From the IMG/VR virus record IMGVR_UViG_3300048998_000202: DNA of 64,000 nucleotides; one strand, given 5' to 3'. Shown here piece by piece: positions 15,317 to 64,000 of the stretch (position 1 is its first letter; each line of letters opens with the position of its first letter). Origin of the DNA: a virus. Its lineage: Duplodnaviria; Caudoviricetes. The notes beneath the pieces are model-generated. The model had not been told where the DNA came from. It saw only the letters and a program-made list of their open reading frames with translations, and ran no database searches. Both the position numbers and the translations under genes were made by a program.

Positions 15317-15452
15317 AAAGGATCCCCTCCCACAAGGAGAGGGGATCCATCCGGGTCTTCTAGAGACCCTCCCTGCCATGCCATGACCTGCCACACCCTG
15401 CCAAGCCCTACCGGGCCGAGCCCTGCCACACCTTGCGACCCTGACTCTATCA
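15317..15452 (-). ncRNA. GGY-NN repeat small-RNA cassette A
   Basis: TGATAGAGT, 12 pentamers (NN: GT AG TC CC AG TT AG GT AG AT AT AG), then hairpins. Confidence 0.8.
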
Positions 15453-19066: not shown

Positions 19067-19963
19067 GTGACGATCGAGCGCAGGGCCTCGCCCTTCGACT
19101 CCATCCGGTACGTGGATCCGGACTTCGGCGAGTGCTGGTACGCCCGGGAACTGATGCCGCTGATGGGGTACTCCCTGTGGCGCCACTTCAACTCCGTCAT
19201 CGGCCGGGCCCGGACCTCCATGAGCAACGACGGCCACGACGTCCGGGAGCACTTCTGGCTGATCAAACGGCCTGCCGAGGTTAATGTCGACCGGTCGACA
19301 AAAACCTCTGACCAGGGAGGACGTCCCTCTGTCGACTTTCGACTGAGCCGCCACGCCTGCTACTTCATCGCCATGAACGGCGACCCGAAGAAAGAGCAGG
19401 TAGCGCTCGCGCAGGGCTACTTCGTCGGCCAGACGGTGAAGATGGAGCAGATCGAGAGGGCTATCCAGGCGCCCCCATCTCCTCCCGTGGCGCTTCCGCC
19501 GATGCCCAGTCACATCGAAGCCCTGCGGGGCTGGGCGGACGCCCTGGAGGGCCAGCAGAGGGCCGAGCAGGTCGCTCTGGAGGCCCAGCGCCTCGCGGAG
19601 GAACTGCGCCCCCCTGCGGAGGCGTGGAACGCCCTGGCGGCAGCCGGAGGGGACTGCTCGGTGGCCGAGGCCGCCGCGATCCTCAACCGGGATCCCGGCA
19701 TCGTCACCGGTCCGGCCCGGCTGTTCCGGTGGCTGCGTGAGATAGGCATCGTCTACCGGCGGCCCAACGATCAACTCGTGCCGTACTCCCAGCACCTGAC
19801 GCACGTACGGCTCCGGCCGACCAACGGGGGCGCCACCGAGGTCCGGATCACGCCGGACGGGCTGGTGTGGATTCAGCAGCGGATGCGTCAGGAGCAGCAG
19901 CGTCCGGCACTGACGATCGTGCCGGACCAGAAAGCCGATGTGGTTCCGATACGTAGGACCTGA
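19067..19963 (+). CDS. phage antirepressor (BRO/DinD-like N-terminus plus ANT/KilAC C-terminus)
   Basis: SPFDSIR, WYARELMPLMGY, LSRHACYFIAMNGDPKKEQVALAQGYF; SVAEAAAIL..RLFRWLR..VRITPDGL. Confidence 0.88.
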   Translation: MTIERRASPFDSIRYVDPDFGECWYARELMPLMGYSLWRHFNSVIGRARTSMSNDGHDVREHFWLIKRPAEVNVDRSTKTSDQGGRPSVDFRLSRHACYFIAMNGDPKKEQVALAQGYFVGQTVKMEQIERAIQAPPSPPVALPPMPSHIEALRGWADALEGQQRAEQVALEAQRLAEELRPPAEAWNALAAAGGDCSVAEAAAILNRDPGIVTGPARLFRWLREIGIVYRRPNDQLVPYSQHLTHVRLRPTNGGATEVRITPDGLVWIQQRMRQEQQRPALTIVPDQKADVVPIRRT

Positions 19964-20063
19964 TAGAGTCAAGTCTTGCAGGGCACGGTAGGGCTAGGCT
20001 AGGCAAGGCCCGGCGCGGCAGGGCACGGCATGGAAGGGCGTCATCCTTCGGGGTGGCGCCCTC
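19961..20063 (+). ncRNA. GGY-NN repeat small-RNA cassette B
   Basis: TGATAGAGTCAAGTCTTGC, 10 pentamers (NN: AC AG TA TA AA CC GC AG AC AT), hairpin AGGGCGTCATCC-TTC-GGGTGGCGCCCT. Confidence 0.85.
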
Positions 20064-20825
20064 AGTCGTTTGACCACAGACATGGCGAAGGCCCCCAGCT
20101 CCACGAGTTGCTGGGGGCCCTGCTGTGCCCGGATCGGGGCCGCCCAGGCGGACGGGCTATGCTCCGCGTTCGCTGCCTCTGCGCTTGACGACGCAGTACC
20201 GGCGTAACGAGGACTTCCCCTACGCCCTTGTTTTCCGGGCTGGCAAGAGGACGTAGCTCGCCATGGTCGGCTCGGATGTGCGTCCGAGGTGCCCGGTCAC
20301 GCCGTCGAGTTCTCCCAAGACGGCGCGGATCTATGGTGCCCCGTTCCGGCCACAGGAGGGGCGGGCCTGCCGTTCGGACGGTCTAACGAGACCGCACGGC
20401 CTGAGACACGCGAGACCGTGCTTCCCCTCAGGGGCCGACTTCCCGGAACTCGAAGGGGAACCCAGGTCATCGGCTGATCTCACGTGCGTCTTGGGTGCCC
20501 CCATATGGCCACAGGAGGGGACGAACCTGATGTGCGGGAAACGGAAGCAACCCTGGCCGTGTGTCCGACAACTGCGAAGAAGCGGACACCGTACGGGGAA
20601 GGCGATTTGCACGCCGACACGAACTCCCTAGGTGGGACATCGGGAGGTGACGCGGGCTCCGCCCCGAACTCCCACCGGGGTTTCACCCTCCCCGCTCGGG
20701 CGACCAGAGACTTCTTCAGCTCCTGGTCGCCGTCGCGCCGTGCATCCTACCGAGCTGATCCACGAACATCGGCTCGGGCTGACGAGAAAGACGCTACTCC
20801 AACGAATGCCGGAGTAGCAAGTCGA

Positions 20826-53970: not shown

Positions 53971-54004
53971 CTCTGCCTCCAGCAGTCGGCCCGGGAAGGG
54001 GTTC

Positions 54005-54038
54005 TCACCCCTTCTTCGGACTCAGGAGATCCAGGACA
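54005..54038 (-). promoter_or_regulatory. candidate late promoter TGTC-N20-GAAGGGGTGA
   Basis: Upstream of the fibre gene, right after the cassette C hairpin. Confidence 0.7.
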
Positions 54039-54041
54039 TGG

Positions 54042-54151
54042 CTGAGGGCGCCACCCCGAAGGATGACGCCCTCCCCTGCCGCGCCGCGCCTCGCCCTGCC
54101 ATGCCGAGCCTAGCCGTGCCGTGCCGCGCCGTGCAAAACCTGACTCTATCA
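54042..54151 (-). ncRNA. GGY-NN repeat small-RNA cassette C
   Basis: TGATAGAGT, 11 GGC-NN pentamers (GC AC AC TA TC AT AG GA GC GC AG), hairpin nearly identical to cassette B. Confidence 0.85.
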
Positions 54152-54159
54152 GGTCCTGG

Positions 54160-55923
54160 TCAGCGGACGACCCAGTTGCCCGCAGGGGTCGGTAGGTACT
54201 CCTTGGCGCTCCACTGGGTGCTGATGGCGACCGGGGTGGTGCCGTTGATGGTCTGGCTGGAAGTGGTGGCGATGTTGACCGCGTTGGCGGAGGCGTCGGT
54301 CTTGACCACCACGATGTTCTTGTTGCGTCCGACGGCTGTCGGCAACGTGACGGTGTGAGCGGCGGCCGTGCAGTTGACGAGAATCATCTCGTCGAACGAA
54401 CTCACCGCGTAGTCGGCCGCGACCGAGATCGCCGGGTAGGACCGCTGGCCGTCGATGATGTCGAATCCGACGGGGTTGTCCAGGGCCAGGTTGGCCGAGG
54501 TGTACAGCCCCATGATCGCCACCTCGCCCCGGGTGGCGATCAGACCCTGACCGGAATTGTTGTCGCCGAACTTGGGCGTGCCCTCGGTGTCGATCTTCAG
54601 GTAAATGAAGGGGCCGATCCCTCCGGCGCCCTGGCCGAGGATGTAGACCAGGTAGCTACAGCTCTCGATCGACAGCATCGTGGCCACGATGGCGTGGGAG
54701 GACCCCGCCGACCCGTAGTAGCCGCCGACCGGGCAGAAGGCTGCCCAGCAGTACAGGATCCGCATGGCATAGATGTCGGAGTGCTCGGTCACGAAAAATC
54801 CGTAGGTGTATCCCCCGTGACAGGTCACGTTGCGGATCAGGCAACTGTCGTTGTTGCCCGAGGAGGGGAAGAGCACGCCGATCGACAGGCCCGAGGAGAA
54901 AGAGCCGAAGGCCGTGTAGTCGCCGCCCGTGACCGATCCGGCGGTGCCGTAGGCGAAGTCGCTCAAGGTGGCGTTGGCGACGCCGGACAGGTCCAAGGCC
55001 GACATGGTCAGGCCGCTGGCACTGTGAGCGGTCAGGATGGACATGTTGCGGAAGTTCACGGCGAGGTTGGTGTAAAGCAGGGCGGAGGTGCCGTAACCAC
55101 TGGGCTGGGACGGGCCGCCGATGACCGCCGAGTTGCCGTTGTCGTTGATGCTGTTGATCTGTGCAGCGGGCGAAGCATGCACCAGGAACGACACCAGGGT
55201 GGCGCCGCCGGTCTGCGGGACGAGTTGGAGCCAGTGCTGGACGGAGGAGCCGTCGACCGGGCCCTCGAAGGTGAGGGTCAGCTTGTTCCCGGCGACCGGC
55301 AGTACCGGCAACGTGAGCTGACTATTGCCCTTACTGGAGCCTCCGGTGCGCAGGGCACCACCGATGCCGTAGAACCGCCCCTGAGCCGCCGGTATCTGGA
55401 CGATGGCGTTATAGCTGTGCGCCAGACCGTAGGCCACCGCCGCGTCGATGGCGGCCTGGAACGCCACGGTGTCGTCGGTTGCCCACAAGACCATCGCACC
55501 CGAGATCGAGGTGGAGGCGTTGGCGCTGAGGACCGCGTGTCCGGAGTTGGTGACGCTCTGGATGAGGGCGATATGACAGGTGGCGGCAGCAGTCCCCGCG
55601 CCCTTGACCATGACGAGCTTGCCCGCGTCCCCGGGGACGAACTTCAAGCTAGTGGCGCAGGCCAGGATGGGTGAGCCCGACGTCATGGCGCCGTCGGTGA
55701 CGATCTGCCCGTCTCCTTTGGCGCCGTAGGCCGTGGGGTCGAACACCCCTGGCGCGGCTCCTCCGATCTGGGAGAACGAGGAGAACAGCGCCGCTGCGGC
55801 CGTGGGACTCAGGGCCAGGTACTGATCATCGGTAAGGGTGTAGGGCAAGCCACCCTGGGCAACGATGCCGCCGGGCAGCATGACATCGACCAGACCGGGC
55901 TTGAGCGTGACGCTGTACGGCAC
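54160..55923 (-). CDS. beta-helix tailspike / polysaccharide depolymerase-like protein
   Basis: YGAKGDG...DDTVAFQAAIDAA pectate-lyase-3-type opening. Confidence 0.72.
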   Translation of the reverse strand: MPYSVTLKPGLVDVMLPGGIVAQGGLPYTLTDDQYLALSPTAAAALFSSFSQIGGAAPGVFDPTAYGAKGDGQIVTDGAMTSGSPILACATSLKFVPGDAGKLVMVKGAGTAAATCHIALIQSVTNSGHAVLSANASTSISGAMVLWATDDTVAFQAAIDAAVAYGLAHSYNAIVQIPAAQGRFYGIGGALRTGGSSKGNSQLTLPVLPVAGNKLTLTFEGPVDGSSVQHWLQLVPQTGGATLVSFLVHASPAAQINSINDNGNSAVIGGPSQPSGYGTSALLYTNLAVNFRNMSILTAHSASGLTMSALDLSGVANATLSDFAYGTAGSVTGGDYTAFGSFSSGLSIGVLFPSSGNNDSCLIRNVTCHGGYTYGFFVTEHSDIYAMRILYCWAAFCPVGGYYGSAGSSHAIVATMLSIESCSYLVYILGQGAGGIGPFIYLKIDTEGTPKFGDNNSGQGLIATRGEVAIMGLYTSANLALDNPVGFDIIDGQRSYPAISVAADYAVSSFDEMILVNCTAAAHTVTLPTAVGRNKNIVVVKTDASANAVNIATTSSQTINGTTPVAISTQWSAKEYLPTPAGNWVVR

Positions 55924-55944
55924 AGGTCCTCCAGGGGTGCGTCT

Positions 55945-55978
55945 TCACCCCTTCCCGGGCCTGAACCGGGTCTGGACA
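55945..55978 (-). promoter_or_regulatory. candidate late promoter TGTC-N20-GAAGGGGTGA
   Basis: Upstream of the tailspike gene. Confidence 0.7.
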
Positions 55979-55982
55979 TGAC

Positions 55983-56086
55983 GAAGGCCCGCTCCCCACG
56001 GGCGGGCCTTCGTGCACACTCATCAGGATTTTAAAATCCTGTCTCCTGCTGCTGCGCTGCTCCACGCTGCGGAGCGGACTCTATCA
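55983..56086 (-). ncRNA. non-repeat small-RNA cassette F
   Basis: Same TGATAGAGT head and GAAGG...CCTTC terminal hairpin; body has hairpins rather than pentamers. Confidence 0.5.
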
Positions 56087-56674
56087 GGACGTGGGGGTCT
56101 GCGACCGCTCGGTCAGCATCTGCTGGAGACGGTTCAGGGCCTGCTCCTGCTTCTCGACCTTGTCCGCCAGTTCGGCAGTGGTCTCCTTGGTCTCCCGGCG
56201 GACGGCCTGGGTCTCCTTGCGGGCGGCCTTCAGCCCCTCCTCCAGCCGATCCTGCCGCCGCGACAGACGCCGGGTGATGTCCGAGACGGCCTGGAGAGCC
56301 CCGGCCTGAGCGTCGTACACCTGCCCCTGCTGCGGAGTCAGCTCGTTGCGGTCGGCCTTGGTCAGAAGATCTATGGCCGTACGGATCCGGCGGTTGGCCT
56401 TCTTGGTCTGGTACCGGGCCGCGCCCCCGTGCTCGGAGGCGTGCATGACGCGGTAGCCCACTTCCCGCTCGTTGGTCAGAGCCCGCTGGTGCTTGTCCAG
56501 CAGCTCCTTCTCCGCACGTCTCACCGGGCTGCGGTCGAGCCGGATGTTGATTCCGGCCCACTCCGAGAGCTCCTCGTACGTGACGACGGTGTCCGGATCG
56601 AGGTCGCGCAGACCCTCATAGATCAGGACCCAACGGGCGACGTCGCCCTTGGGCTCGAACGGCTTGGTGCCCAT
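56084..56674 (-). CDS. partner protein of the RAMP-like gene (wHTH-like N-terminus, coiled-coil C-terminus)
   Basis: VVTYEELSEWAG..VRRAEKEL..NEREVGYRV; heptad-rich C-terminus; co-oriented, 44 nt downstream. Confidence 0.65.
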   Translation of the reverse strand: MGTKPFEPKGDVARWVLIYEGLRDLDPDTVVTYEELSEWAGINIRLDRSPVRRAEKELLDKHQRALTNEREVGYRVMHASEHGGAARYQTKKANRRIRTAIDLLTKADRNELTPQQGQVYDAQAGALQAVSDITRRLSRRQDRLEEGLKAARKETQAVRRETKETTAELADKVEKQEQALNRLQQMLTERSQTPTS

Positions 56675-56718
56675 TCGTTCGTTCTCCTTGTTGTCGGTGC
56701 TGCTGATACTGGCGGAAA

Positions 56719-57297
56719 TCAGCCCTGGATCTGGGTGACCTCGACGTCGAACCGCCCGAACCGGGGACGGTAGTCACCCAGTCCGATCATCTGGCCCGCC
56801 TTCTCGGCGATGCTGGTGATCTGGTCCAGGTCGAGCTGGCCGTCGTCCACGATCAGGTCGGCCTCCAGCGCCCACTGCGGGAACTTGGGCCGGGTGCGCA
56901 TGACGCGCGAGGTGGTGACCCCCACGGAGAGCCGGGAGACGAAGTTCTTGTCCTTCCACAGTCCCTCGACCGTACGGGATCCGCTGTAGCCCAGGGGGTG
57001 GATCTCGTTGACGACGACGACACCTCGCTCGACGGCCGGGCCCTGCCGGGTCATCTTGGCCGCCTTGATCAGGCAGGCGTGGATGTTGGCGCCGGGGATG
57101 TACGGACCGGTCTCCTCGTCGAAGTACAGGCCGCCCTCGAACTCGATGCGGGCCATCTCCTCGTGGTCGGACTCGGTCTTGATGCGCTTGCCGGAGACCT
57201 TTTTGAGCTGCTTGGTGATGGTCGCCAGCGGGTCGGACAGTTGCGCGTTGTGCATCAGCAGCGACGTGGTTCCGATGATGGTCAGGCGGACCTGCAT
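56719..57297 (-). CDS. RAMP/Cas7(Csm3)-like RNA-binding protein, candidate effector of the GGY-NN RNAs
   Basis: N-terminal strand VRLTIIGTTSLLMH, PYIPGANIHACL (cf. Csm3 PYIPGSSLKG), Gly-rich loop GLGDYRPRFGRF; RBS before ATG at 57297. Confidence 0.75.
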   Translation of the reverse strand: MQVRLTIIGTTSLLMHNAQLSDPLATITKQLKKVSGKRIKTESDHEEMARIEFEGGLYFDEETGPYIPGANIHACLIKAAKMTRQGPAVERGVVVVNEIHPLGYSGSRTVEGLWKDKNFVSRLSVGVTTSRVMRTRPKFPQWALEADLIVDDGQLDLDQITSIAEKAGQMIGLGDYRPRFGRFDVEVTQIQG

Positions 57298-57334
57298 GAG
57301 TTCTCCCTGGTGTCGGTACTCTCTGGCGCCACCG

Positions 57335-57364
57335 AACATACTCCAAGGATTGTTGGAGTGTCAA
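57335..57364 (-). promoter_or_regulatory. sigma70-type promoter TTGACA-N18-TATGTT with a palindromic operator as spacer
   Basis: Spacer is CTCCAA-CAATCC-TTGGAG. Confidence 0.7.
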
Positions 57365-57370
57365 CGGGGC

Positions 57371-57874
57371 AAAACGAAGGGCCCGGGATCCGAAGATCCC
57401 GGGCCCTTCTCCATGCCTCGCCGTGTCGAGCCTTGCCATGCCGGGCCATGCCCGACCAAGCCGTGCCACGCAAGACTTGACTCTGTCAGTTCCACCACGA
57501 TCTGTCAAACGACGAAGGGGACCACCCGGAGGTGATCCCCTTCTCCCTGCCGTGCCTTACCCGGCCCTGCCTAGCCATGCCACACCGCACCACGCCCCGC
57601 AGGTCTTGACGTTATCAAGACCCTTCGGAGCCGTCAATGACGAAGGGGCCCTCCGTAGAGGACCCCTTCTCCTATGCCAAACCTAGCCATACCCTACCCT
57701 GCCACGCCAAACCTAGCCAAGCCATGCCCTGCAAGACTTGACTCTGTCAGCTCCTACGGCATCTGTCAACGACGGAGGGGCCCCACCGTAGTGGAGCCCC
57801 TCTCCCATGCCCGGCCTTACCCAGCCCTGCCTTGCCTCACCTCGGCCAGCCGTACCGAGACCTTGACTGTATCA
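57371..57874 (-). ncRNA. array D: four tandem GGY-NN small-RNA cassettes (D1 57874-57774, D2 57769-57642, D3 57637-57514, D4 57508-57371)
   Basis: Each has a TGA-extended -10 (D2-D4 with TTGACR 17 nt upstream), 10-11 pentamers and a GC hairpin. Confidence 0.88.
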
Positions 57875-57877
57875 GGA

Positions 57878-58747
57878 TCAGTAGAACCGGGACCAGTACC
57901 GGGGCCGCGCCGCCACCGAGCCCGCCATGCGGGTAGGCCCGTACCTGCCGTAGACGCCGCCCGAGATCAGGACGGCCGGGCGTCCGAGACCCATCTGGCT
58001 GATCTTGAAGACATCGAGCTGGGACTTGGCGGCCTGCTCCTCCTCCATGAGGACGTCCCGCCAGCGCTGGACGTAGTCCCGGCGGTCCAGTCGGGAGACG
58101 TTGCCGGAGCCCTGGAACATGGGCTGCTCGGTGTAGGAGCGGATCAGGTGCTTGAGGGTCTCGATCCAGGTCATGGCCTCCAGCAGCGGGCCCCACTGGG
58201 GATAGGGGAACTGCGCTCCCCCGTCGCCGTCCACGGTGAAGGTCTGGAAGGGCTGCGCGATGGTGTTCATGCGCCCGAGCGCGATGCGCATCAGTTCGGC
58301 GATCCGGCCCCGGCCGAACTTCGACTGGACGTAGGTCGTCAGGTTGGGGCCGCCACCTGGGGAGTCGATGGTGTCGGCGATGCGGACCATGACGCGCTCG
58401 ATGATGTCTTTCATCGGGACCACCAGGCCGTCGTACGACGGGGCGGCCGGGCCGATCTCGATGCCGGACTCGTAGTACTCCTGCTGACCGGTCAGCAGGT
58501 ATGTCCAGGCCAGGGTGTAGGAGCCCGGGACGGAGGTCTCCACGCTGTTGAAGGTCGCCGAGTAGTCGCCGGTCGCGTTGTGGGTGGCCAGCCGGGAGAA
58601 GATCTCGTTGCCGGTGTTCTCGGAGACCATGGTGAGGGTGACCCCGGCGTCGGCATCTATCGGGACCTGGTTCTGGAGGATCTTCAGTCCCACCACGTCC
58701 ACGGCGTACTGCGATACGTACTGCCGATCGTTCCAGTACAAGGCCAT
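57878..58747 (-). CDS. head-tail adaptor protein, putative
   Basis: Position in the head module. Confidence 0.55.
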   Translation of the reverse strand: MALYWNDRQYVSQYAVDVVGLKILQNQVPIDADAGVTLTMVSENTGNEIFSRLATHNATGDYSATFNSVETSVPGSYTLAWTYLLTGQQEYYESGIEIGPAAPSYDGLVVPMKDIIERVMVRIADTIDSPGGGPNLTTYVQSKFGRGRIAELMRIALGRMNTIAQPFQTFTVDGDGGAQFPYPQWGPLLEAMTWIETLKHLIRSYTEQPMFQGSGNVSRLDRRDYVQRWRDVLMEEEQAAKSQLDVFKISQMGLGRPAVLISGGVYGRYGPTRMAGSVAARPRYWSRFY

Positions 58748-58756
58748 GGTCGAGTC

Positions 58757-59410
58757 CTAGCGGTCGGTCGCGTTGACGAACATGGCCAGGATGCGGCTGG
58801 TGCTCAGCGTCATGGAAGAGCCGGTGGGCGAAGCGGTGATCTGGATGCCGACCGAGTGGGAGCCCGCGCTGATGTTGCGTACGCCCAGGACCGGGATGGT
58901 CGTGGACCAGTGACCGGTGCCGAAGGTGGAGTTGTCGGGCCAGTTGGTCAGGACGTACTCCGCCATGGTGGCGTCGAAGGCCGACACCGCGCCGTCGATC
59001 AGGATGCGGTTGGTACCGCCGATGAAGCCCCGGGTGGGCAGGCTGAACTCGTTGGTACCGATGCACAGCAGGCTACCGGGCCGGTTCACGGTGAAAGTAC
59101 CGATGGTGTAGCTGACGACGGTGTTGTGGTTGATGGTGGCGTTGGGCCGCAGAGCGCCCCACCACACGGCCGGGCCGTAGAGCATCTCGCGCCAGGTGGT
59201 GCCGTTCCACATCAGGGTACGGCGGGTGTCCGTCTCGATGATCTGCATGCCCGTCTGGCCCGCACCCCAGGACGGCCGGGTGGTGGACGTGCATATCCAG
59301 TCGCCCGTGTGCTGGTCCAGGATGTTGAAGTTCTGGACGAAGTCGGTCCGCAGGAACGGGTCCGACCCGTCGGGGATCTTGATCCCCATGTGCTGGCTGG
59401 TGGTGGACAT
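58757..59410 (-). CDS. virion structural protein
   Basis: CTSTTRPS..GMQIIETDT motif seen in actinophage minor structural proteins. Confidence 0.55.
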   Translation of the reverse strand: MSTTSQHMGIKIPDGSDPFLRTDFVQNFNILDQHTGDWICTSTTRPSWGAGQTGMQIIETDTRRTLMWNGTTWREMLYGPAVWWGALRPNATINHNTVVSYTIGTFTVNRPGSLLCIGTNEFSLPTRGFIGGTNRILIDGAVSAFDATMAEYVLTNWPDNSTFGTGHWSTTIPVLGVRNISAGSHSVGIQITASPTGSSMTLSTSRILAMFVNATDR

Positions 59411-59437
59411 CCGCTCCCGATCCTCTCGTGGTGACCT

Positions 59438-59471
59438 TCACCCCTTCCGGGGCGACCTGCGGTAGCCGACA
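59438..59471 (-). promoter_or_regulatory. candidate late promoter TGTC-N20-GAAGGGGTGA
   Basis: Upstream of 58757-59410. Confidence 0.7.
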
Positions 59472-59503
59472 GGACCGGTCGGGGCGACTACCAATAGATG
59501 TGC

Positions 59504-59540
59504 GAGGAGCCCCGTACGTCAGGTTCGTACGGGGCTCCTC
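59504..59540. terminator. hairpin downstream of the FN3 gene
   Basis: GAGGAGCCCCGTACG...CGTACGGGGCTCCTC. Confidence 0.6.
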
Positions 59541-59550
59541 ACGTCCGACA

Positions 59551-60936
59551 TCAGGAAACGGTGACGTTGCCCGACGCGGCGGAGGTGGTCGTGGAGACCG
59601 ATCCCTGGGCCCCCACGGTGGCGGTGTCCACATGGCCGGTGGTCAGCGCGGTGAAGTCGTTGCTCAAGACGTTGCCCGCCACGGTGTGGACGGTGGTGTC
59701 CTGGCCTCCCAGGGTGACGATGTAGTTGATCGGGGCGCCCGAGGACGGTGCGGACCACACGACGTGGATGGTGCCCGCCGACGGGCTGGTGACCGTCGGG
59801 GCCGCCGGGGCGGTGGGCTTGCCGAAGGCCGCCGAGGCACTGGAGGTGGCGTTGGCGACCGCGCCGTTGGAAGTGACCGTGGCCGTGATGGCGGTGGCGC
59901 TGGCGACTCCGGTGAAGGTGGTCGTCAGAGTCCCGGCGGCCACGGTCTTGGTCTGGCCGGACGACAGGGTCACCGTGTAGCTGAGCACGGTGCCGCCGGA
60001 CGTCGGGGCGACCCAGGTGGCCACCACGCCGCCCACGGTGGCGTTGCCGGACAGGACGACGCTCGTGGGGGCGCCGGGGCGACCCTGGAGGCCGGAGCCC
60101 GACTTGATGGTGCCGTCGGCGCCGTAGATGGGGTTCTGGGCCCAGTAGGGGTCCAGGCCGCCGGGCTTGCCGACGTCCGGCTCATCCGGGTTGTACGGCG
60201 TCACGGAGGCCGAGGCGGTGCCCAGCGGGCCGTTGCCGTTGCGGTTCCGGGCCAGCACCTGGAAGGTGTACGCCTGGTCGGGGACCAGGTTCTGGACGGT
60301 GACGGTGGTGACGCCCCGGCCGGTGTAGGTGGTGCCGCCGGTCGAGCCGACCACCACGTATCCCAGGACGGGCGCGGTGGCATGCGGGTCGGCCACGGTG
60401 GCCCACGTGACGCTCGCCGTACGGGCTCCGGCGGCCACGGTGGGGGTACCGGCGGGGGCGACCGGTACGAGGGCGCTGACGGGCCCGATGGCACCGATGT
60501 TGCCCGACTCCAGGGTGCCGCTGAGGTTCTGGGCGTAGTCGGTGCGCACCGATCCGTCGGAGATCGGGGTGTCGGTCCGAGTGGTGTCGGCGCCTCCTGC
60601 GGCGCCCACGAGGCCGACGGTGAGGGTCGGGGCCCGGTACGCCTGGGTGACTCCGGAGGTCTGGGGCCAGCCGATCATGCCGGTCTCGACGGTGCCCGCC
60701 AGCAGAGGCGGAGGGGTCGGGGTGTACGGGCCGTTGGTGGCGTTGGTCGCTGAGGTGTCCGGAGTGCCGGTCAGCGTGCCACCGGTCTGGACGTTGCTGC
60801 CGCCGCCGCCAGCGCCGGAGTTGGCGGTGTCGGTGTTGGACGCGCGGTCTTGGGTTCCACGGGGGGCAGCACCGGCATTTCCGGTCACACCCTCGGTGTC
60901 GATCTCCTGACCCGAGTATCCGGGCGGTGTGGTCAT
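59551..60936 (-). CDS. fibronectin type III-domain virion protein
   Basis: ASVTW..VLGYVV..NLVPDQAYTFQVLARNRNGNG plus two further FN3-like repeats. Confidence 0.8.
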   Translation of the reverse strand: MTTPPGYSGQEIDTEGVTGNAGAAPRGTQDRASNTDTANSGAGGGGSNVQTGGTLTGTPDTSATNATNGPYTPTPPPLLAGTVETGMIGWPQTSGVTQAYRAPTLTVGLVGAAGGADTTRTDTPISDGSVRTDYAQNLSGTLESGNIGAIGPVSALVPVAPAGTPTVAAGARTASVTWATVADPHATAPVLGYVVVGSTGGTTYTGRGVTTVTVQNLVPDQAYTFQVLARNRNGNGPLGTASASVTPYNPDEPDVGKPGGLDPYWAQNPIYGADGTIKSGSGLQGRPGAPTSVVLSGNATVGGVVATWVAPTSGGTVLSYTVTLSSGQTKTVAAGTLTTTFTGVASATAITATVTSNGAVANATSSASAAFGKPTAPAAPTVTSPSAGTIHVVWSAPSSGAPINYIVTLGGQDTTVHTVAGNVLSNDFTALTTGHVDTATVGAQGSVSTTTSAASGNVTVS

Positions 60937-62237: not shown

Positions 62238-62358
62238 TGGACGATCGGCGCCACGACTCAGGTCCGTGGGGGACGGAAGGAATCGGCGCCGCCTCGTGCA
62301 CGGGGAGCGTGGCACGGTGGGGTAGACGCTGTCAAGGCGAATGTGTTCCACTGGAGAG

Positions 62359-62598
62359 ATGGAAGATCAGCACACGATGCAGACAGACACCCCCACCGAC
62401 GACCTGAAGCTGTACGGGATCTCCGAGCTGGCGGATCGCTGGAAGGTCTCTAAGCAGCGGGCTGACGAGATCGCCTCCAAGCGCCTCCCACAGCCCCTCA
62501 CGCTCAAGATGGGCCGCATCTGGACAGAACTCCAGGTGGAGAACTTCGAGAGAGGGTGGGTCCGTAAGACGGGGCGTCACATCGTCCCCAGGACTTGA
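62359..62598 (+). CDS. small AlpA/excisionase-like HTH protein heading array E
   Basis: LYGISELADRWKVSKQRADEI..LPQP..GRIW...VE; GGAGA RBS before ATG at 62359. Confidence 0.75.
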   Translation: MEDQHTMQTDTPTDDLKLYGISELADRWKVSKQRADEIASKRLPQPLTLKMGRIWTELQVENFERGWVRKTGRHIVPRT

Positions 62599-63362
62599 TA
62601 TCGTCAGGGGTTACTGGGCTCGGCAGGGCTAGGTAGGGCAGGACTGGGCACGGCATGGGAGGGGCTTCCTACGGGGAGCCCCTCAGCCGTTGACAGGCGC
62701 TCTTGGGAGTGACAGAGTCAGGTCTTGCAGGACCACACGTGGGCGTGTGGAGAAGGGGCGCTTCTTCCAGGAGGCGCCCCTTCGTCGTTTGACAGACCGG
62801 CACGGGGGTGACAAAGTCAGGTCTTGCATGATGGGAAGGACACACGGTTGGTTTCTGAGGCCGGAACCGTGTGGATGCGATCGGCCCTCAAGGCCGTGGA
62901 CGCGTCCGAAGGCCCCCTCTGAAGATTCCTGGAGGGGGCCTTCGTTCGTTTGACCGGACGACATTAGGGCTGACAGGGTCAGTTCTTACAGGGCACCGTC
63001 TGGTTGGGCACGGTAAGGCATGGTGGGGTAAGGCACGGCTGGGCAGGGGAGGGCGACCATCTTCGGATGGTCGCCCTCAGCCGTTTGACAGGTGCGGGTG
63101 GAGCTGACAGAGTCAAGTCTTGCAGGGCCGGGCCCGGTAGGGCGTGGTTTGGCGTGGTGTGGTTGGGCAACGCATGGCATGGCATGGCAGGGGAAAGGCC
63201 CCAGGATTTTAAAATCCTGGGGCCTTTCGTTACGCCCTGAAGGAACTGATAGAGTCATGGTCTCGGCAGGCCGAGGCTAGGTAAGGCACGGCGGGGCAAG
63301 GCACCGCCCGGTAGGGCAAGGCATGGGGAAGGCCCCCTCGGATTCTCCCGAGGGGGCCTTCC
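62596..63362 (+). ncRNA. array E: six tandem cassettes (E1 62596-62684, E2 62690-62783, E3 62789-62943, E4 62950-63078, E5 63085-63228, E6 63247-63362); E2 and E3 lack pentamers
   Basis: Repeating promoter-like head, 8-13 GGY-NN pentamers and GC hairpin. Confidence 0.88.
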
Positions 63363-63387
63363 GTTGTCCTGAAGCGACTACTCTCCG

Positions 63388-64000
63388 TCACGCCTTGGTG
63401 ATCGTCGCGATGCCCCTGGGGTTCAAAATGGACATATTGACCATTTCGTCAAATACCCATCCCTTCCAGAAGGCTTCGACCATGTGGTTCTCTTCCACGT
63501 CCAAACTGTACAGAACGGGGAAAACGCCCAAGAAGTTGGGCTCCGGGGTGAGGAAGACCTTGCCCTGCGGGACGATGATCGACCGCTGGATCTGGAACTC
63601 GCCGAACGAGGTGATGGTCTCGCCCGCGACGACCCGGTCCTTGAAGGCCCAGCCCGTCTGGTTGATGTCCCACCGGTACAGGTCCCGGAAGTCGAACGGG
63701 TTGATCAGGATCCGCGCCGACTGGAGCTCGTGCATGTCCGTCATGGCGACGGCCGAGTACAGCGAGCCCGGCGTCAGGTAGCCCGACGCCTCGGTGATGT
63801 TGTGGTTCGGGGTGACCGTGTGGTCCGGGCGGGTGGCGTAGTCCGTCAGCGCCGCCTGGAGCAGTACGAGCAGCCGGGTGTCCTCCTGCTTGAGGATCGC
63901 CTGCTTGGTCTCGTCCTGGGCCTGCTCGACTGCGTTGATACGCAGGTAGAACAGGTCCTCCTTGCGGATCGCGGGGCGCGAGGCGATACGGAAGAACCGC
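63388..64000 (-). CDS. major capsid protein (5' end outside the window)
   Basis: Open frame to the window edge: FRIASRPAIRKEDL..NAVEQAQDETKQAILKQED..IVPQGKVF..GWVFDEMVNMSILNPRGIA, an HK97-fold capsid pattern. Confidence 0.85.
   Translation of the reverse strand, partial: RFFRIASRPAIRKEDLFYLRINAVEQAQDETKQAILKQEDTRLLVLLQAALTDYATRPDHTVTPNHNITEASGYLTPGSLYSAVAMTDMHELQSARILINPFDFRDLYRWDINQTGWAFKDRVVAGETITSFGEFQIQRSIIVPQGKVFLTPEPNFLGVFPVLYSLDVEENHMVEAFWKGWVFDEMVNMSILNPRGIATITKA

What the first reader, a model, noticed from the sequence alone, without database searches (positions are those of the whole stretch)
56084..57874. Candidate phage RNA-guided system: RAMP/Cas7-like protein, partner gene and GGY-NN small-RNA array
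Seen: four tandem cassettes (promoter-like head, 10-11 pentamers of near-constant GGC/GGT plus a variable dinucleotide, hairpin) lie directly upstream of a 192 aa gene and a co-oriented 196 aa gene. Seven more pentamer cassettes lie elsewhere in the window. Knowledge: the protein has RAMP hallmarks (first beta strand, YIPG helix, C-terminal Gly loop GLGDYRPRFGRF), and Cas7 proteins polymerise along guide RNA with a fixed periodicity. Inference: one subunit binds each GGY-NN unit and displays NN for target pairing. No cas1/cas2, nuclease or CRISPR repeats are present in the window. From memory, this resembles recently reported phage 'VIPR' GGY/NN systems; I cannot verify that here, so novelty needs a literature check.
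Basis: partly seen in the sequence, partly recalled or inferred. Interest (0 to 1): 0.97.

Follow-up and report, generated by a model that had tools for sequence, protein, structure and literature searches.

The report
Actinophage VIPR RNA-guided silencing system
This is a real but already described kind of phage RNA-guided DNA-silencing system (VIPR: a Cas7-like protein, a DNA-binding partner and GGY-NN guide RNAs), here in a large soil actinophage whose guides appear aimed at a Streptomyces defence helicase, a chromosome-end helicase and the capsid gene of rival phages.

Summary

- **Vipr protein.** The 192-aa protein (56719-57297, minus strand) is a full-length sequence homologue of the solved SUSP1 Vipr protein (PDB 36pp, E 3.7e-35). 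It keeps the GGY-binding residues, and its model's best fold matches are Csm3/Cas7.
- **Accessory protein.** The 196-aa neighbour falls in the same PHROG (5926) as the accessory gene beside vipr in Felixounavirus, LittleE and MakoManhole.
- **Guide cassettes.** Four vrRNA cassettes sit upstream, each with a promoter, a variable leader unit, 10-11 GGY-NN units and a GC-rich hairpin. Seven more lie elsewhere in the window.
- **Co-occurrence.** In 32 of 39 genomic loci with Vipr homologues, same-strand GGY-NN arrays lie within about 1.3 kb; shuffled controls gave none.
- **Literature.** VIPR was described in 2026 bioRxiv preprints, so this is a new member of a known kind.
- **New here: predicted targets under the published 1-nt-skip rule.**
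  - The 57674 guide matches DruE-like (Druantia) helicase genes in 16 of 151 Streptomyces genomes (control 0).
  - The 57547 guide matches motif III of a TtrA-like helicase in 28 of 101 genomes (control 0).
  - The 63265 guide matches the major head gene of relatives at 21/22, but the phage's own copy at only 17/22.

The scan had already noted these guide decodings on this genome; I tested them here.

The parts
56719..57297 (-). vipr: 192-aa Vipr (stand-alone RAMP/Cas7-like) protein
   Evidence: phmmer against PDB 36pp_D 'SUSP1 Vipr protein' gives E 3.7e-35 over residues 4-188; the family profile gives E 1.7e-55. AF2 pLDDT 95.9. Foldseek top hits are Csm3/Cas7. phrog_4652, E 1e-58.
56084..56674 (-). 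vap: 196-aa Vap1-like accessory protein (N-terminal winged-helix-like domain plus a long helical region)
   Evidence: phrog_5926, E 9e-6. The same PHROG holds the vipr-adjacent genes of phage wV8 (7e-76), LittleE gp33 (6.5e-43) and MakoManhole gp77 (2.8e-12). BLASTP to LittleE gp33 gives 3e-13. AF2 pLDDT 83. Only weak fold hits, all winged-helix regulators.
57335..57364 (-). promoter-like site of the vipr-vap operon (TTGACA, 18 nt, TATGTT)
   Evidence: 10 of 12 consensus matches, the only site found in 56000-58000.
57762..57874 (-). vrRNA cassette A1: head box 57864-57874, leader GTCTC 57857-57861, 10 GGY-NN units 57807-57856, tail hairpin 57762-57806
   Evidence: No target found in 61 Streptomyces genomes.
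57629..57769 (-). vrRNA cassette A2: -35 box at 57764-57769, head box 57739-57749, leader TGCAG 57729-57733, 11 units 57674-57728, tail hairpin 57629-57673
   Evidence: The guide read as codon positions 1-2 gives ILLTNYKML. It matches DruE-like helicase genes in 16 of 151 Streptomyces genomes, control 0.
57502..57617 (-). vrRNA cassette A3: leader TGCGG 57597-57601, 10 units 57547-57596, tail hairpin 57502-57546
   Evidence: The guide reads LVFRLYMTATP (SF2 motif III). It matches ResIII/DEAD/HA helicase genes in 28 of 101 Streptomyces genomes, control 0.
57368..57508 (-). vrRNA cassette A4: -35 box at 57503-57508, head box 57478-57488, leader TGCGT 57468-57472, 11 units 57413-57467, tail hairpin 57368-57412
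   Evidence: No target found.
55960..56086 (-). cassette-like element just downstream of vap: head box TGATAGAGTCC, a GCAGC-type pentamer run without GGY, then a hairpin
   Evidence: Read by eye only; its function was not tested. It may be a degenerate vrRNA and/or the operon terminator.
15373..15452 (-). dispersed vrRNA gene (12 units plus leader CGCAA)
19961..20076 (+). dispersed vrRNA gene (10 units plus leader TGCAG; tail of the GGAAGGGCG hairpin type)
54031..54151 (-). dispersed vrRNA gene (11 units plus leader TGCAC)
62596..63370 (+). second tandem locus of six cassettes. Four have GGY-NN guides (62617-62656, 62992-63046, 63126-63190, 63265-63324). Two are atypical (62690-62788 and 62789-62948).
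63500..63537 (+). the phage's own copy of the site matched by the 63265-63324 guide, inside the major head gene (64000 down to 63388, minus strand)
   Evidence: phrog_2522, E 1e-65. Own copy 17/22 against 21/22 in the VIPR-null relative G174.

Best explanation
This is a VIPR (Viral Interference Programmable Repeat) system of the SUSP1-like, type II kind, carried by a lytic-looking actinobacterial myophage of about 153 kb.

Inferred mechanism, taken from the SUSP1 work:
- Each cassette is transcribed from its own sigma-70-like promoter into a vrRNA of about 100 nt and ends at its hairpin.
- Vipr protomers polymerise along the vrRNA, one per GGY-NN unit. They bury GGY and present NN.
- The filament binds double-stranded DNA whose sequence matches the NN dinucleotides with one skipped base between them. 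This forms an R-loop triplex that blocks transcription.
- The winged-helix-like Vap enhances the effect.

Shown here:
- Homology of both proteins to their VIPR counterparts.
- Conservation of the GGY-contact residues.
- The cassette anatomy.
- Co-occurrence of Vipr homologues with GGY-NN arrays.
- Hypervariable NN positions between near-identical phages.
- Matches above control, with skipped bases at codon wobble positions, for three guides.

Those matches predict three targets: a DruE-like defence helicase and a TtrA-like helicase of Streptomyces, and the major head gene of related phages.

Not shown: transcription, RNP assembly, DNA binding and silencing.
For: **Vipr**
- phmmer against PDB 36pp_D (SUSP1 Vipr) gives E 3.7e-35 over the full length; the profile gives 1.7e-55.
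- From the alignment, the SUSP1 residues named in 10.64898/2026.04.26.720927 map as follows: H17, R138, D177, W178, R179, K33, R39, K82, G87 correspond to H16, R136, D175, Y176, R177, K32, R38, K81, G86 here.
- H16, R136, R177 and G86 are invariant, and D175 nearly invariant, in 37 homologues.
- The fold matches Csm3/Cas7.

**Vap**
- It shares phrog_5926 with the vipr-adjacent genes of a Felixounavirus, LittleE and MakoManhole and aligns with LittleE gp33 at E 3e-13.

**vrRNAs**
- 11 arrays, 91 pattern matches against 0.9 expected.
- Shared head box and hairpin tails.

**Co-occurrence**
- 32 of 39 genome loci with Vipr homologues carry same-strand arrays; shuffles gave 0.
- Arrays also flank vipr in MakoManhole, LittleE, wV8, L006 and L005.
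- A complete relative, G175, has vipr, vap and 20 arrays. The complete relative G174 has none of the three.

**Guide turnover**
- In L048 (Vipr 96% identical) the promoters and tails are about 95-100% identical, while the NN positions differ and one cassette is absent.

**Targets**
- Guide A2: 16 of 151 genomes at no more than 1 mismatch in 18, control 0. All 6 sites checked lie in DruE-like genes.
- Guide A3: 28 of 101 genomes at no more than 2 mismatches in 20, control 0.
- The 63265 guide: 21/22 in the G174 major head gene, against a shuffle maximum of 17.
- Guide A1, with a pattern of equal information content, gave 0 hits in 61 genomes, which serves as a negative control.
Against:
- Targets were sought for 7 guides of the window. 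Beyond the scans of relatives and fetched loci, A1, A2, A3 and A4 were tested against Streptomyces genomes (A4 also against viral contigs), and the 62992 and 63265 guides against viral contigs only. Four of the seven (A1, A4, 62992, and none of the solos tested against Streptomyces) gave nothing.
- The host is inferred, not known.
- The A2 match covers only the nine 5' units. The three 3' units do not fit the Streptomyces DruE genes seen, giving 82-86% overall.
- The best A3 site still has one mismatch.
- Silencing a host defence gene after infection would not remove protein already made. The DruE and TtrA matches may therefore reflect targets on mobile elements rather than counter-defence.
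- W178 is Y here, the Y3-pocket residues E71/M72 are A70/N71, and K88 is P87.
- The tail looks like a plain hairpin, whereas the SUSP1 clade has a pseudoknot.
Confidence: 0.93

Rival explanations
1. A minimal CRISPR-like effector in which the Cas7-like protein and pentamer RNAs bind or cleave RNA, as in type III complexes, rather than silencing DNA.
For: The best solved fold matches other than Vipr are Csm3/Cas7 subunits of RNA-targeting type III and VII complexes. The cryo-EM preprint notes that the filament can also pair with ssRNA.
Against: Sequence homology is to SUSP1 Vipr, for which dsDNA binding and transcriptional repression on either strand were shown. No CRISPR repeats or other cas genes were found. 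ssRNA gave mostly incomplete filaments in the structures. The predicted target sites lie in the sense orientation for some genes and antisense for others, as expected for DNA targeting.
Confidence: 0.03
2. The system is VIPR, but all its natural targets are competing mobile elements (phages, satellites, plasmids). The matches to DruE-like and TtrA-like genes then arise because such genes ride on those elements, not because the phage silences host defence.
For: Published natural targets are satellites, prophages and rival VIPR loci. The 63265 guide fits the capsid gene of relatives. Both helicase families are patchily distributed: 28% and 11% of the genomes sampled. TtrA sits at the ends of linear plasmids as well as chromosomes (PMC8743542). 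Transcriptional silencing cannot remove defence protein already made.
Against: The one DruE-like hit whose flanks were read lies next to a type IIG methylase-like gene and a UvrD/GajB-like gene, a defence-island-like setting. No phage or plasmid hallmark was examined around the hits, so this rival is open rather than contradicted.
Confidence: 0.35
3. The GGY-NN arrays are ordinary G-rich repeats or terminator/regulatory elements unrelated to the neighbouring protein.
For: Each cassette ends in a terminator-like hairpin, and some lie between convergent genes.
Against: Arrays occur on the same strand within about 1.3 kb of Vipr homologues in 32 of 39 unrelated genomes, against 0 in shuffles. They are absent together with vipr and vap from the complete relative G174. 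GGY is conserved while NN varies between near-identical phages.
Confidence: 0.01

Closest known systems
Type II VIPR of Escherichia phage SUSP1 (Felixounavirus) and the Pseudomonas fulva prophage (bioRxiv 10.64898/2026.04.26.720920, .720927; PDB 36pp)
   Same: - Homologous Vipr, about 36% identical to Vipr of SUSP1-family (Felixounavirus) phages (phmmer E 3.7e-35 to SUSP1 Vipr), with the G1/G2 contact residues kept.
- A homologous accessory gene immediately downstream.
- vrRNAs of 10-13 GGY-NN units plus a structured 3' tail, flanking the operon on the same strand.
- Phage-borne, with no CRISPR array.
- Predicted targets follow the 1-nt-skip rule, with the skipped base on the codon wobble position.
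   Different: - High-GC actinophage host range.
- Four vrRNAs upstream of vipr, whereas SUSP1 has one upstream and three downstream.
- At least 11 vrRNA genes in 64 kb, and 20 in the complete relative G175, scattered through replication and structural modules.
- Every cassette has its own promoter-like box and a plain 12-16 bp GC hairpin. A pseudoknot was not seen, but it was not excluded either.
- The leader unit has TGC or similar instead of GGY.
- Two guides fit host-type helicase genes rather than satellites or prophages.
Solo / orphan vrRNAs of F5 satellites and VIPR-null Enterobacteriaceae phages (bioRxiv 10.64898/2026.10.15.759431)
   Same: vrRNA genes located away from vipr, and wobble-aligned guides against conserved coding sequence of relatives.
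   Different: Here the dispersed vrRNAs sit in a VIPR-positive genome. The relative-directed guide fits the major head gene rather than vipr or vrRNA loci.
Cas7/Csm3 backbone subunits of class 1 CRISPR-Cas effectors
   Same: RRM/RAMP core, glycine-rich loop and thumb, and polymerisation along a guide with a fixed period (fold match; mechanism).
   Different: No repeat-spacer array and no Cas5, Cas6, Cas10 or large subunit. The period is 5 nt, with three bases buried and two displayed. Sequence identity is only about 10-15%.
Phage-encoded CRISPR-Cas of Vibrio phage ICP1 against the PLE satellite (from my own knowledge)
   Same: A phage-borne RNA-guided system turned against elements resident in the host.
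   Different: ICP1 uses a full type I-F system that degrades DNA and acquires spacers. VIPR type II has no nuclease and no known adaptation machinery.

Membership tests
VIPR system | Vipr protein: a minimal RAMP (RRM core, G-loop, thumb) homologous to described Vipr proteins | tested here: met
   E 3.7e-35 to PDB 36pp_D SUSP1 Vipr over the full length. AF2 pLDDT 95.9, with Csm3/Cas7 as the top fold matches.
VIPR system | Residues that read GGY (SUSP1 H17, R138, D177, W178, R179) and contact DNA (K33, R39, K82) | tested here: met
   They correspond to H16, R136, D175, Y176 (W to Y), R177, K32, R38 and K81 in the alignment. Most are invariant in 37 homologues. The Y3-pocket residues E71/M72 differ (A70/N71).
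VIPR system | vrRNA genes: 9-16 tandem GGY/NN (YNNGG) units next to vipr on the same strand | tested here: met
   Four arrays of 10-11 units directly upstream. 91 matches against 0.9 expected.
VIPR system | Conserved structured 3' tail after the repeat tract | tested here: met
   All 11 tails fold into 12-16 bp GC hairpins, z from -2.8 to -7.2. The stems differ in sequence but stay paired. A pseudoknot like SUSP1's was not assessed, and alignment-based covariation failed.
VIPR system | NN hypervariable while GGY and flanks are conserved among relatives | tested here: met
   Comparison of the window with L048 (Vipr 96% identical): heads and tails nearly identical, NN different.
VIPR system | Accessory vap gene adjacent to vipr | tested here: met
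   The 196-aa gene lies 44 nt downstream. phrog_5926 is shared with the vipr neighbours of wV8, LittleE and MakoManhole. That wV8 gp094 equals SUSP1 vap1 is inferred from synteny in the same genus and was not read from the SUSP1 record.
VIPR system | Targets obey the 1-nt-skip (NNx) code | tested here: met
   Three guides give matches far above reversed-pattern or shuffled controls, all with the skipped base on the codon wobble position. Eight guides have no identified target.
VIPR system | vrRNAs are expressed and co-purify with Vipr; the RNP binds dsDNA and represses transcription | not testable with these tools
VIPR type II (SUSP1 / P. fulva type) | Placement in the type II clade of the published Vipr tree, with a DNA-binding vap1 | tested here: inconclusive
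   The nearest characterised protein is the type II SUSP1 Vipr, and Vap shares the PHROG of Felixounavirus vap. The published tree and type table (their data S4) were not available.
CRISPR-Cas class 1 effector | CRISPR repeat-spacer array plus Cas5, Cas6 and large-subunit genes | tested here: not met
   No Rfam CRISPR-DR or other family in the window. The neighbouring genes are phage structural and replication genes. Only the fold is shared.

The most novel reading that the evidence does not exclude
In this clade of roughly 155-kb soil actinophages, VIPR has grown to about 20 independently transcribed guides per genome. It is used not only against rival phages but also as an RNA-guided counter-defence. 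Guide A2 would silence Druantia-type DruE helicase genes and guide A3 a telomere-proximal TtrA-like helicase of Streptomyces. Both do so by reading invariant helicase motifs through codon positions 1-2. A third guide would hit the major head gene of relatives, while the phage's own copy escapes through synonymous Leu/Ser six-fold codon switches. The four held papers that mention VIPR contain none of the host-defence terms I searched in them.
Probability: 0.35. Interest if true: 0.8.

Novelty: new member of a known kind. Interest (0 to 1): 0.5.

Why it matters
VIPR was described only in 2026, and experimental work so far is on Escherichia and Pseudomonas systems. This locus extends it to a large, well-populated clade of high-GC soil phages: 318 major-head-protein relatives in IMG/VR, including both VIPR-positive and VIPR-null complete genomes. 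That gives a natural system for competition experiments.

The guides can be read as short peptides because the code skips wobble bases. Two of them spell conserved helicase motifs of host-type genes, one of which belongs to the Druantia defence family. If that holds, it would show that phages use programmable RNA-guided silencing against bacterial immunity, not only against other mobile elements.

The capsid-directed guide and the recoded self copy offer a concrete case of how self is told from non-self without a PAM.

Tried and rejected
- **Related phage by DNA:** megablast of 54000-60000 against 50,697 phage records found nothing.
- **Genome access:** no whole genome is held for the window, and locus L005 could not serve as a genome handle.
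- **Relative search:** the broad Vipr alignment had no stretch conserved enough for the search for related loci. A narrower alignment worked.
- **Tail covariation:** RNAalifold on a MAFFT alignment gave no structure, because the stems of different lengths were misaligned. I rely on the single-sequence folds instead.
- **Self-targets:** none of the guides matches the window above shuffled-guide levels under skips of 0, 1 or 2. The skip-3 hits are the arrays themselves.
- **Guide A4:** one 3-mismatch hit in 171 Streptomyces genomes, which is chance level. Nothing in five complete relatives and no exact hit in IMG/VR.
- **The 62992 guide:** no exact hit in IMG/VR.
- **Guide A1:** nothing in 61 Streptomyces genomes.
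- **Other guides against relatives:** of the 45 guides scanned (from the window, L047, L048 and G175), only the 63265 guide and its L047 orthologue hit G174, G175 or the window above the null.
- **Low-GC IMG/VR hits of the 63265 guide:** the first nine units hit at least 120 contigs of 38-61% GC, ten of them at 24/24. There the forward reading SDYKTGKTPRK appears to be the coding sense. I set these aside as probably irrelevant to a 65% GC actinophage. The cause may be the abundance of the nuclease-type DYKTGK motif, which I recall from memory. They were not followed up.
- **Vap fold search:** no significant PDB match, only weak winged-helix regulators.
- **NCBIfam and Pfam:** neither has a model for Vipr or Vap.
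Full report
**Observation.** The minus strand of 57300-57874 carries four tandem cassettes directly upstream of a 192-aa ORF (56719-57297) and a co-oriented 196-aa ORF (56084-56674). Each cassette has four parts:
- a head box TGAYAGAGTCA, which has 13 copies in the window against 1.4 expected;
- a 5-nt leader;
- 10 or 11 pentamers of GGC/GGT plus two free bases;
- a GC-rich hairpin.

Two of the four cassettes have TTGACA exactly 17 nt upstream of the head box. A five-unit GGYNN pattern gives 91 matches against 0.9 expected. A unit-by-unit scan finds the same four arrays plus seven more: 15373, 19982 and 54076, and four within 62596-63370.

**The protein.** Pfam and NCBIfam have no model for the 192-aa protein, and PHROGs places it in phrog_4652, of unknown function. 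A database search finds over 200 homologues of about 190 aa, all unnamed.
- With 37 of these as an alignment, AlphaFold2 gives a model with pLDDT 95.9.
- The model's best solved fold matches are Csm3/Cas7 subunits of type III and VII CRISPR complexes (E about 2e-5, TM about 0.5).
- A plain sequence search of the PDB hits one entry, 36pp 'SUSP1 Vipr protein', at E 3.7e-35 over residues 4-188. The family profile gives 1.7e-55.
- In that alignment, the residues that the cryo-EM preprint names as reading G1 and G2 (H17, D177, R138, W178), stacking on Y3 (R179) and holding the DNA strands (K33, R39, K82) correspond to H16, D175, R136, Y176, R177, K32, R38 and K81. Most are invariant in the family.

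The protein is therefore a Vipr.

**The partner.** The 196-aa protein matches phrog_5926 (E 9e-6).
- The gene immediately downstream of vipr in Felixounavirus wV8 (the genus of SUSP1), in mycobacteriophage LittleE and in Gordonia phage MakoManhole belongs to the same PHROG (E 7e-76, 6.5e-43 and 2.8e-12).
- LittleE gp33 aligns with the window's protein over its full length (E 3e-13).
- Its AF2 model (pLDDT 83) has an N-terminal helix-strand-helix-helix-hairpin unit followed by two long helices. Fold matches are weak, but all are winged-helix regulators.

This fits the published description of type II Vap proteins as winged-helix-like DNA binders.

**Literature.** VIPR is described in bioRxiv 10.64898/2026.04.26.720920. 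It comprises Vipr plus Vap plus vrRNAs of 9-16 GGY/NN repeats and a structured tail. Recognition of dsDNA follows a 1-nt-skip rule and leads to transcriptional repression. Seven types are defined.
- The structures are in 10.64898/2026.04.26.720927.
- Biology in E. coli, including solo vrRNAs and wobble-aligned targeting, is in 10.64898/2026.10.15.759431.
- A fourth preprint recovers VIPR arrays from a language model.

**Co-occurrence and context.** The window is part of a phage with a tail sheath, baseplate, DnaE-type polymerase, DnaB and a major head protein. Its contig is 153.5 kb.
- Of 39 loci in species-representative genomes that encode a Vipr relative, 32 have GGY-NN arrays. All lie on the vipr strand and nearly all within about 1.3 kb. 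Shuffled loci gave none.
- The same holds in MakoManhole, LittleE, wV8 and two further loci.
- The major head protein has 318 relatives in IMG/VR.
- Two complete relatives were read in full. G175 (159.7 kb, terminal repeats) has vipr (71% identical), vap and 20 arrays spread over the genome. G174 (156.0 kb) has no vipr, no vap and no array.

**Guide turnover.** In L048, whose Vipr is 96% identical, the promoters and hairpin tails of the orthologous cassettes are almost identical. The NN positions differ and one cassette is missing. The leader unit (TGCNN, GTCTC and similar) also varies in its last two bases, so it probably acts as the first guide unit.

**Targets.** I applied the published NN-x-NN rule.

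*Self and relatives.* No guide matches the window itself above shuffled-guide levels.

*The 63265-63324 guide.*
- It matches the major head gene of relatives at 21/22 in G174 and 20/22 in G175, against a shuffle maximum of 17.
- It matches at 20-22 of 24 in most of 80 clade members.
- The skipped bases fall on wobble positions of the peptide NFLGVFPVLYSL(D).
- The window's own copy, only about 130 nt from the cassette, encodes the identical peptide but matches at 17/22.
- Its own copy mismatches the guide at all four six-fold-degenerate codons of the site. Three of them (TTG to CTG, TCA to AGT, CTT to TTG) also differ from L048. Of the four such family switches between the window and L048 across the 40 six-fold codons of the fragment, three fall within the site (hypergeometric P 0.0016).
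- A caveat: L047 carries the same guide and its own copy still matches at 19/22, and one relative without that guide has the same 'escaped' allele.

*Guide A3 (57547-57601).*
- It reads LVFRLYMTATP.
- Its pattern hits 28 of 101 Streptomyces genomes at no more than 2 mismatches in 20, with no hit for the reversed control.
- The site is motif III of helicases of about 700-880 aa with ResIII, DEAD, Helicase_C and HA domains. Many lie 1-2 kb from contig ends.
- This fits ttrA, the inward-facing helicase gene at the ends of Streptomyces linear replicons (PMC8743542). Orthology to ttrA is inferred, not shown.

*Guide A2 (57674-57733).*
- It reads ILLTNYKML over its nine 5' units.
- That pattern hits 16 of 151 genomes at no more than 1 mismatch in 18, control 0. 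One of the 16, G133, is an unpublished genome, so the count is 15 of 150 without it.
- All six sites examined lie in DruE-like helicase genes (PADLOC DruE3, E 1e-46 to 2e-89).
- The one locus read further sits between a type IIG methylase-like gene and a UvrD/GajB-like gene.

*Guides without targets.* Guides A1 and A4 gave nothing. This also shows that patterns of this information content do not hit by chance.

**Reading.** Membership of VIPR is secure. Function is inferred by homology: RNA-guided binding of dsDNA and transcriptional block. The target predictions are computational. The relative-directed capsid guide fits the published picture of inter-phage conflict. The two host-type helicase targets are outside what the held VIPR papers report: searches of the first and third preprints for Druantia, anti-defence, counter-defence, restriction and similar host-defence terms found nothing relevant (one unrelated use of 'restriction'), and no held paper combines VIPR terms with Druantia or anti-defence. 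They suggest counter-defence, but they are equally compatible with targets carried on plasmids or other mobile elements. Transcriptional silencing would also not remove defence protein already made.

**Earlier notes of this scan** had already proposed the capsid decoding and the two helicase decodings. I used them as leads for A2 and A3 and tested all three here. The capsid match I had found independently.

Noticed in passing
window 62690-62788 (+) and 62789-62948 (+): Two cassettes in the second tandem locus have the usual promoter box, leader and hairpin tail but no GGY-NN tract. One has an 18-nt body, the other an unrelated body of about 85 nt. They may be decayed vrRNAs or other small RNAs that use the same expression cassette.
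   Followed up: no
window 55960-56086 (-): Immediately after the vap stop codon there is a head box (TGATAGAGTCC), a run of GCAGC-like pentamers lacking GGY, an AT-rich palindrome (CAGGATTTTAAAATCCTG) that also forms the loop region of the 63126 cassette tail, and a hairpin.
   Followed up: no
IMG/VR loci L049-L168: The first nine units of the 63265 guide match at least 120 low-GC (38-61%) viral contigs exactly, ten of them at 24/24. In those contigs the forward reading SDYKTGKTPRK, not the capsid reading, appears to be the coding sense. This may be a coincidence caused by an abundant nuclease motif, or a second target class.
   Followed up: partly
G174 (IMG/VR record behind L171) versus G175 (behind L181): Closely related complete phage genomes of about 156-160 kb differ in having the whole VIPR apparatus (vipr, vap, 20 vrRNA genes) or none of it. 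They form a natural VIPR-positive / VIPR-null pair.
   Followed up: partly
L048:6338-6387 versus window 57547-57601: The orthologous guide in a 96%-identical relative keeps the seven units that spell (L)YMTATP but differs in the rest and is shorter by two units (a 10-nt gap in the alignment). This suggests guides evolve by unit insertions and deletions while tracking variants of the same helicase motif.
   Followed up: no
L005:11106-11213 (Streptomyces sp. prophage): A single, partly degenerate vrRNA (5 of 13 units have GTC or TGC instead of GGY) lies downstream of vap. Its tail has the same GGGAGGGCG-hairpin-CGCCCTCAG form as three of the window's tails.
   Followed up: no
window 62341-62598 (+): An 85-aa ORF with no PHROG match ends at the start of the second vrRNA locus, and a counterpart ORF precedes the equivalent locus in L048. 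It may be a small regulator of that array.
   Followed up: no
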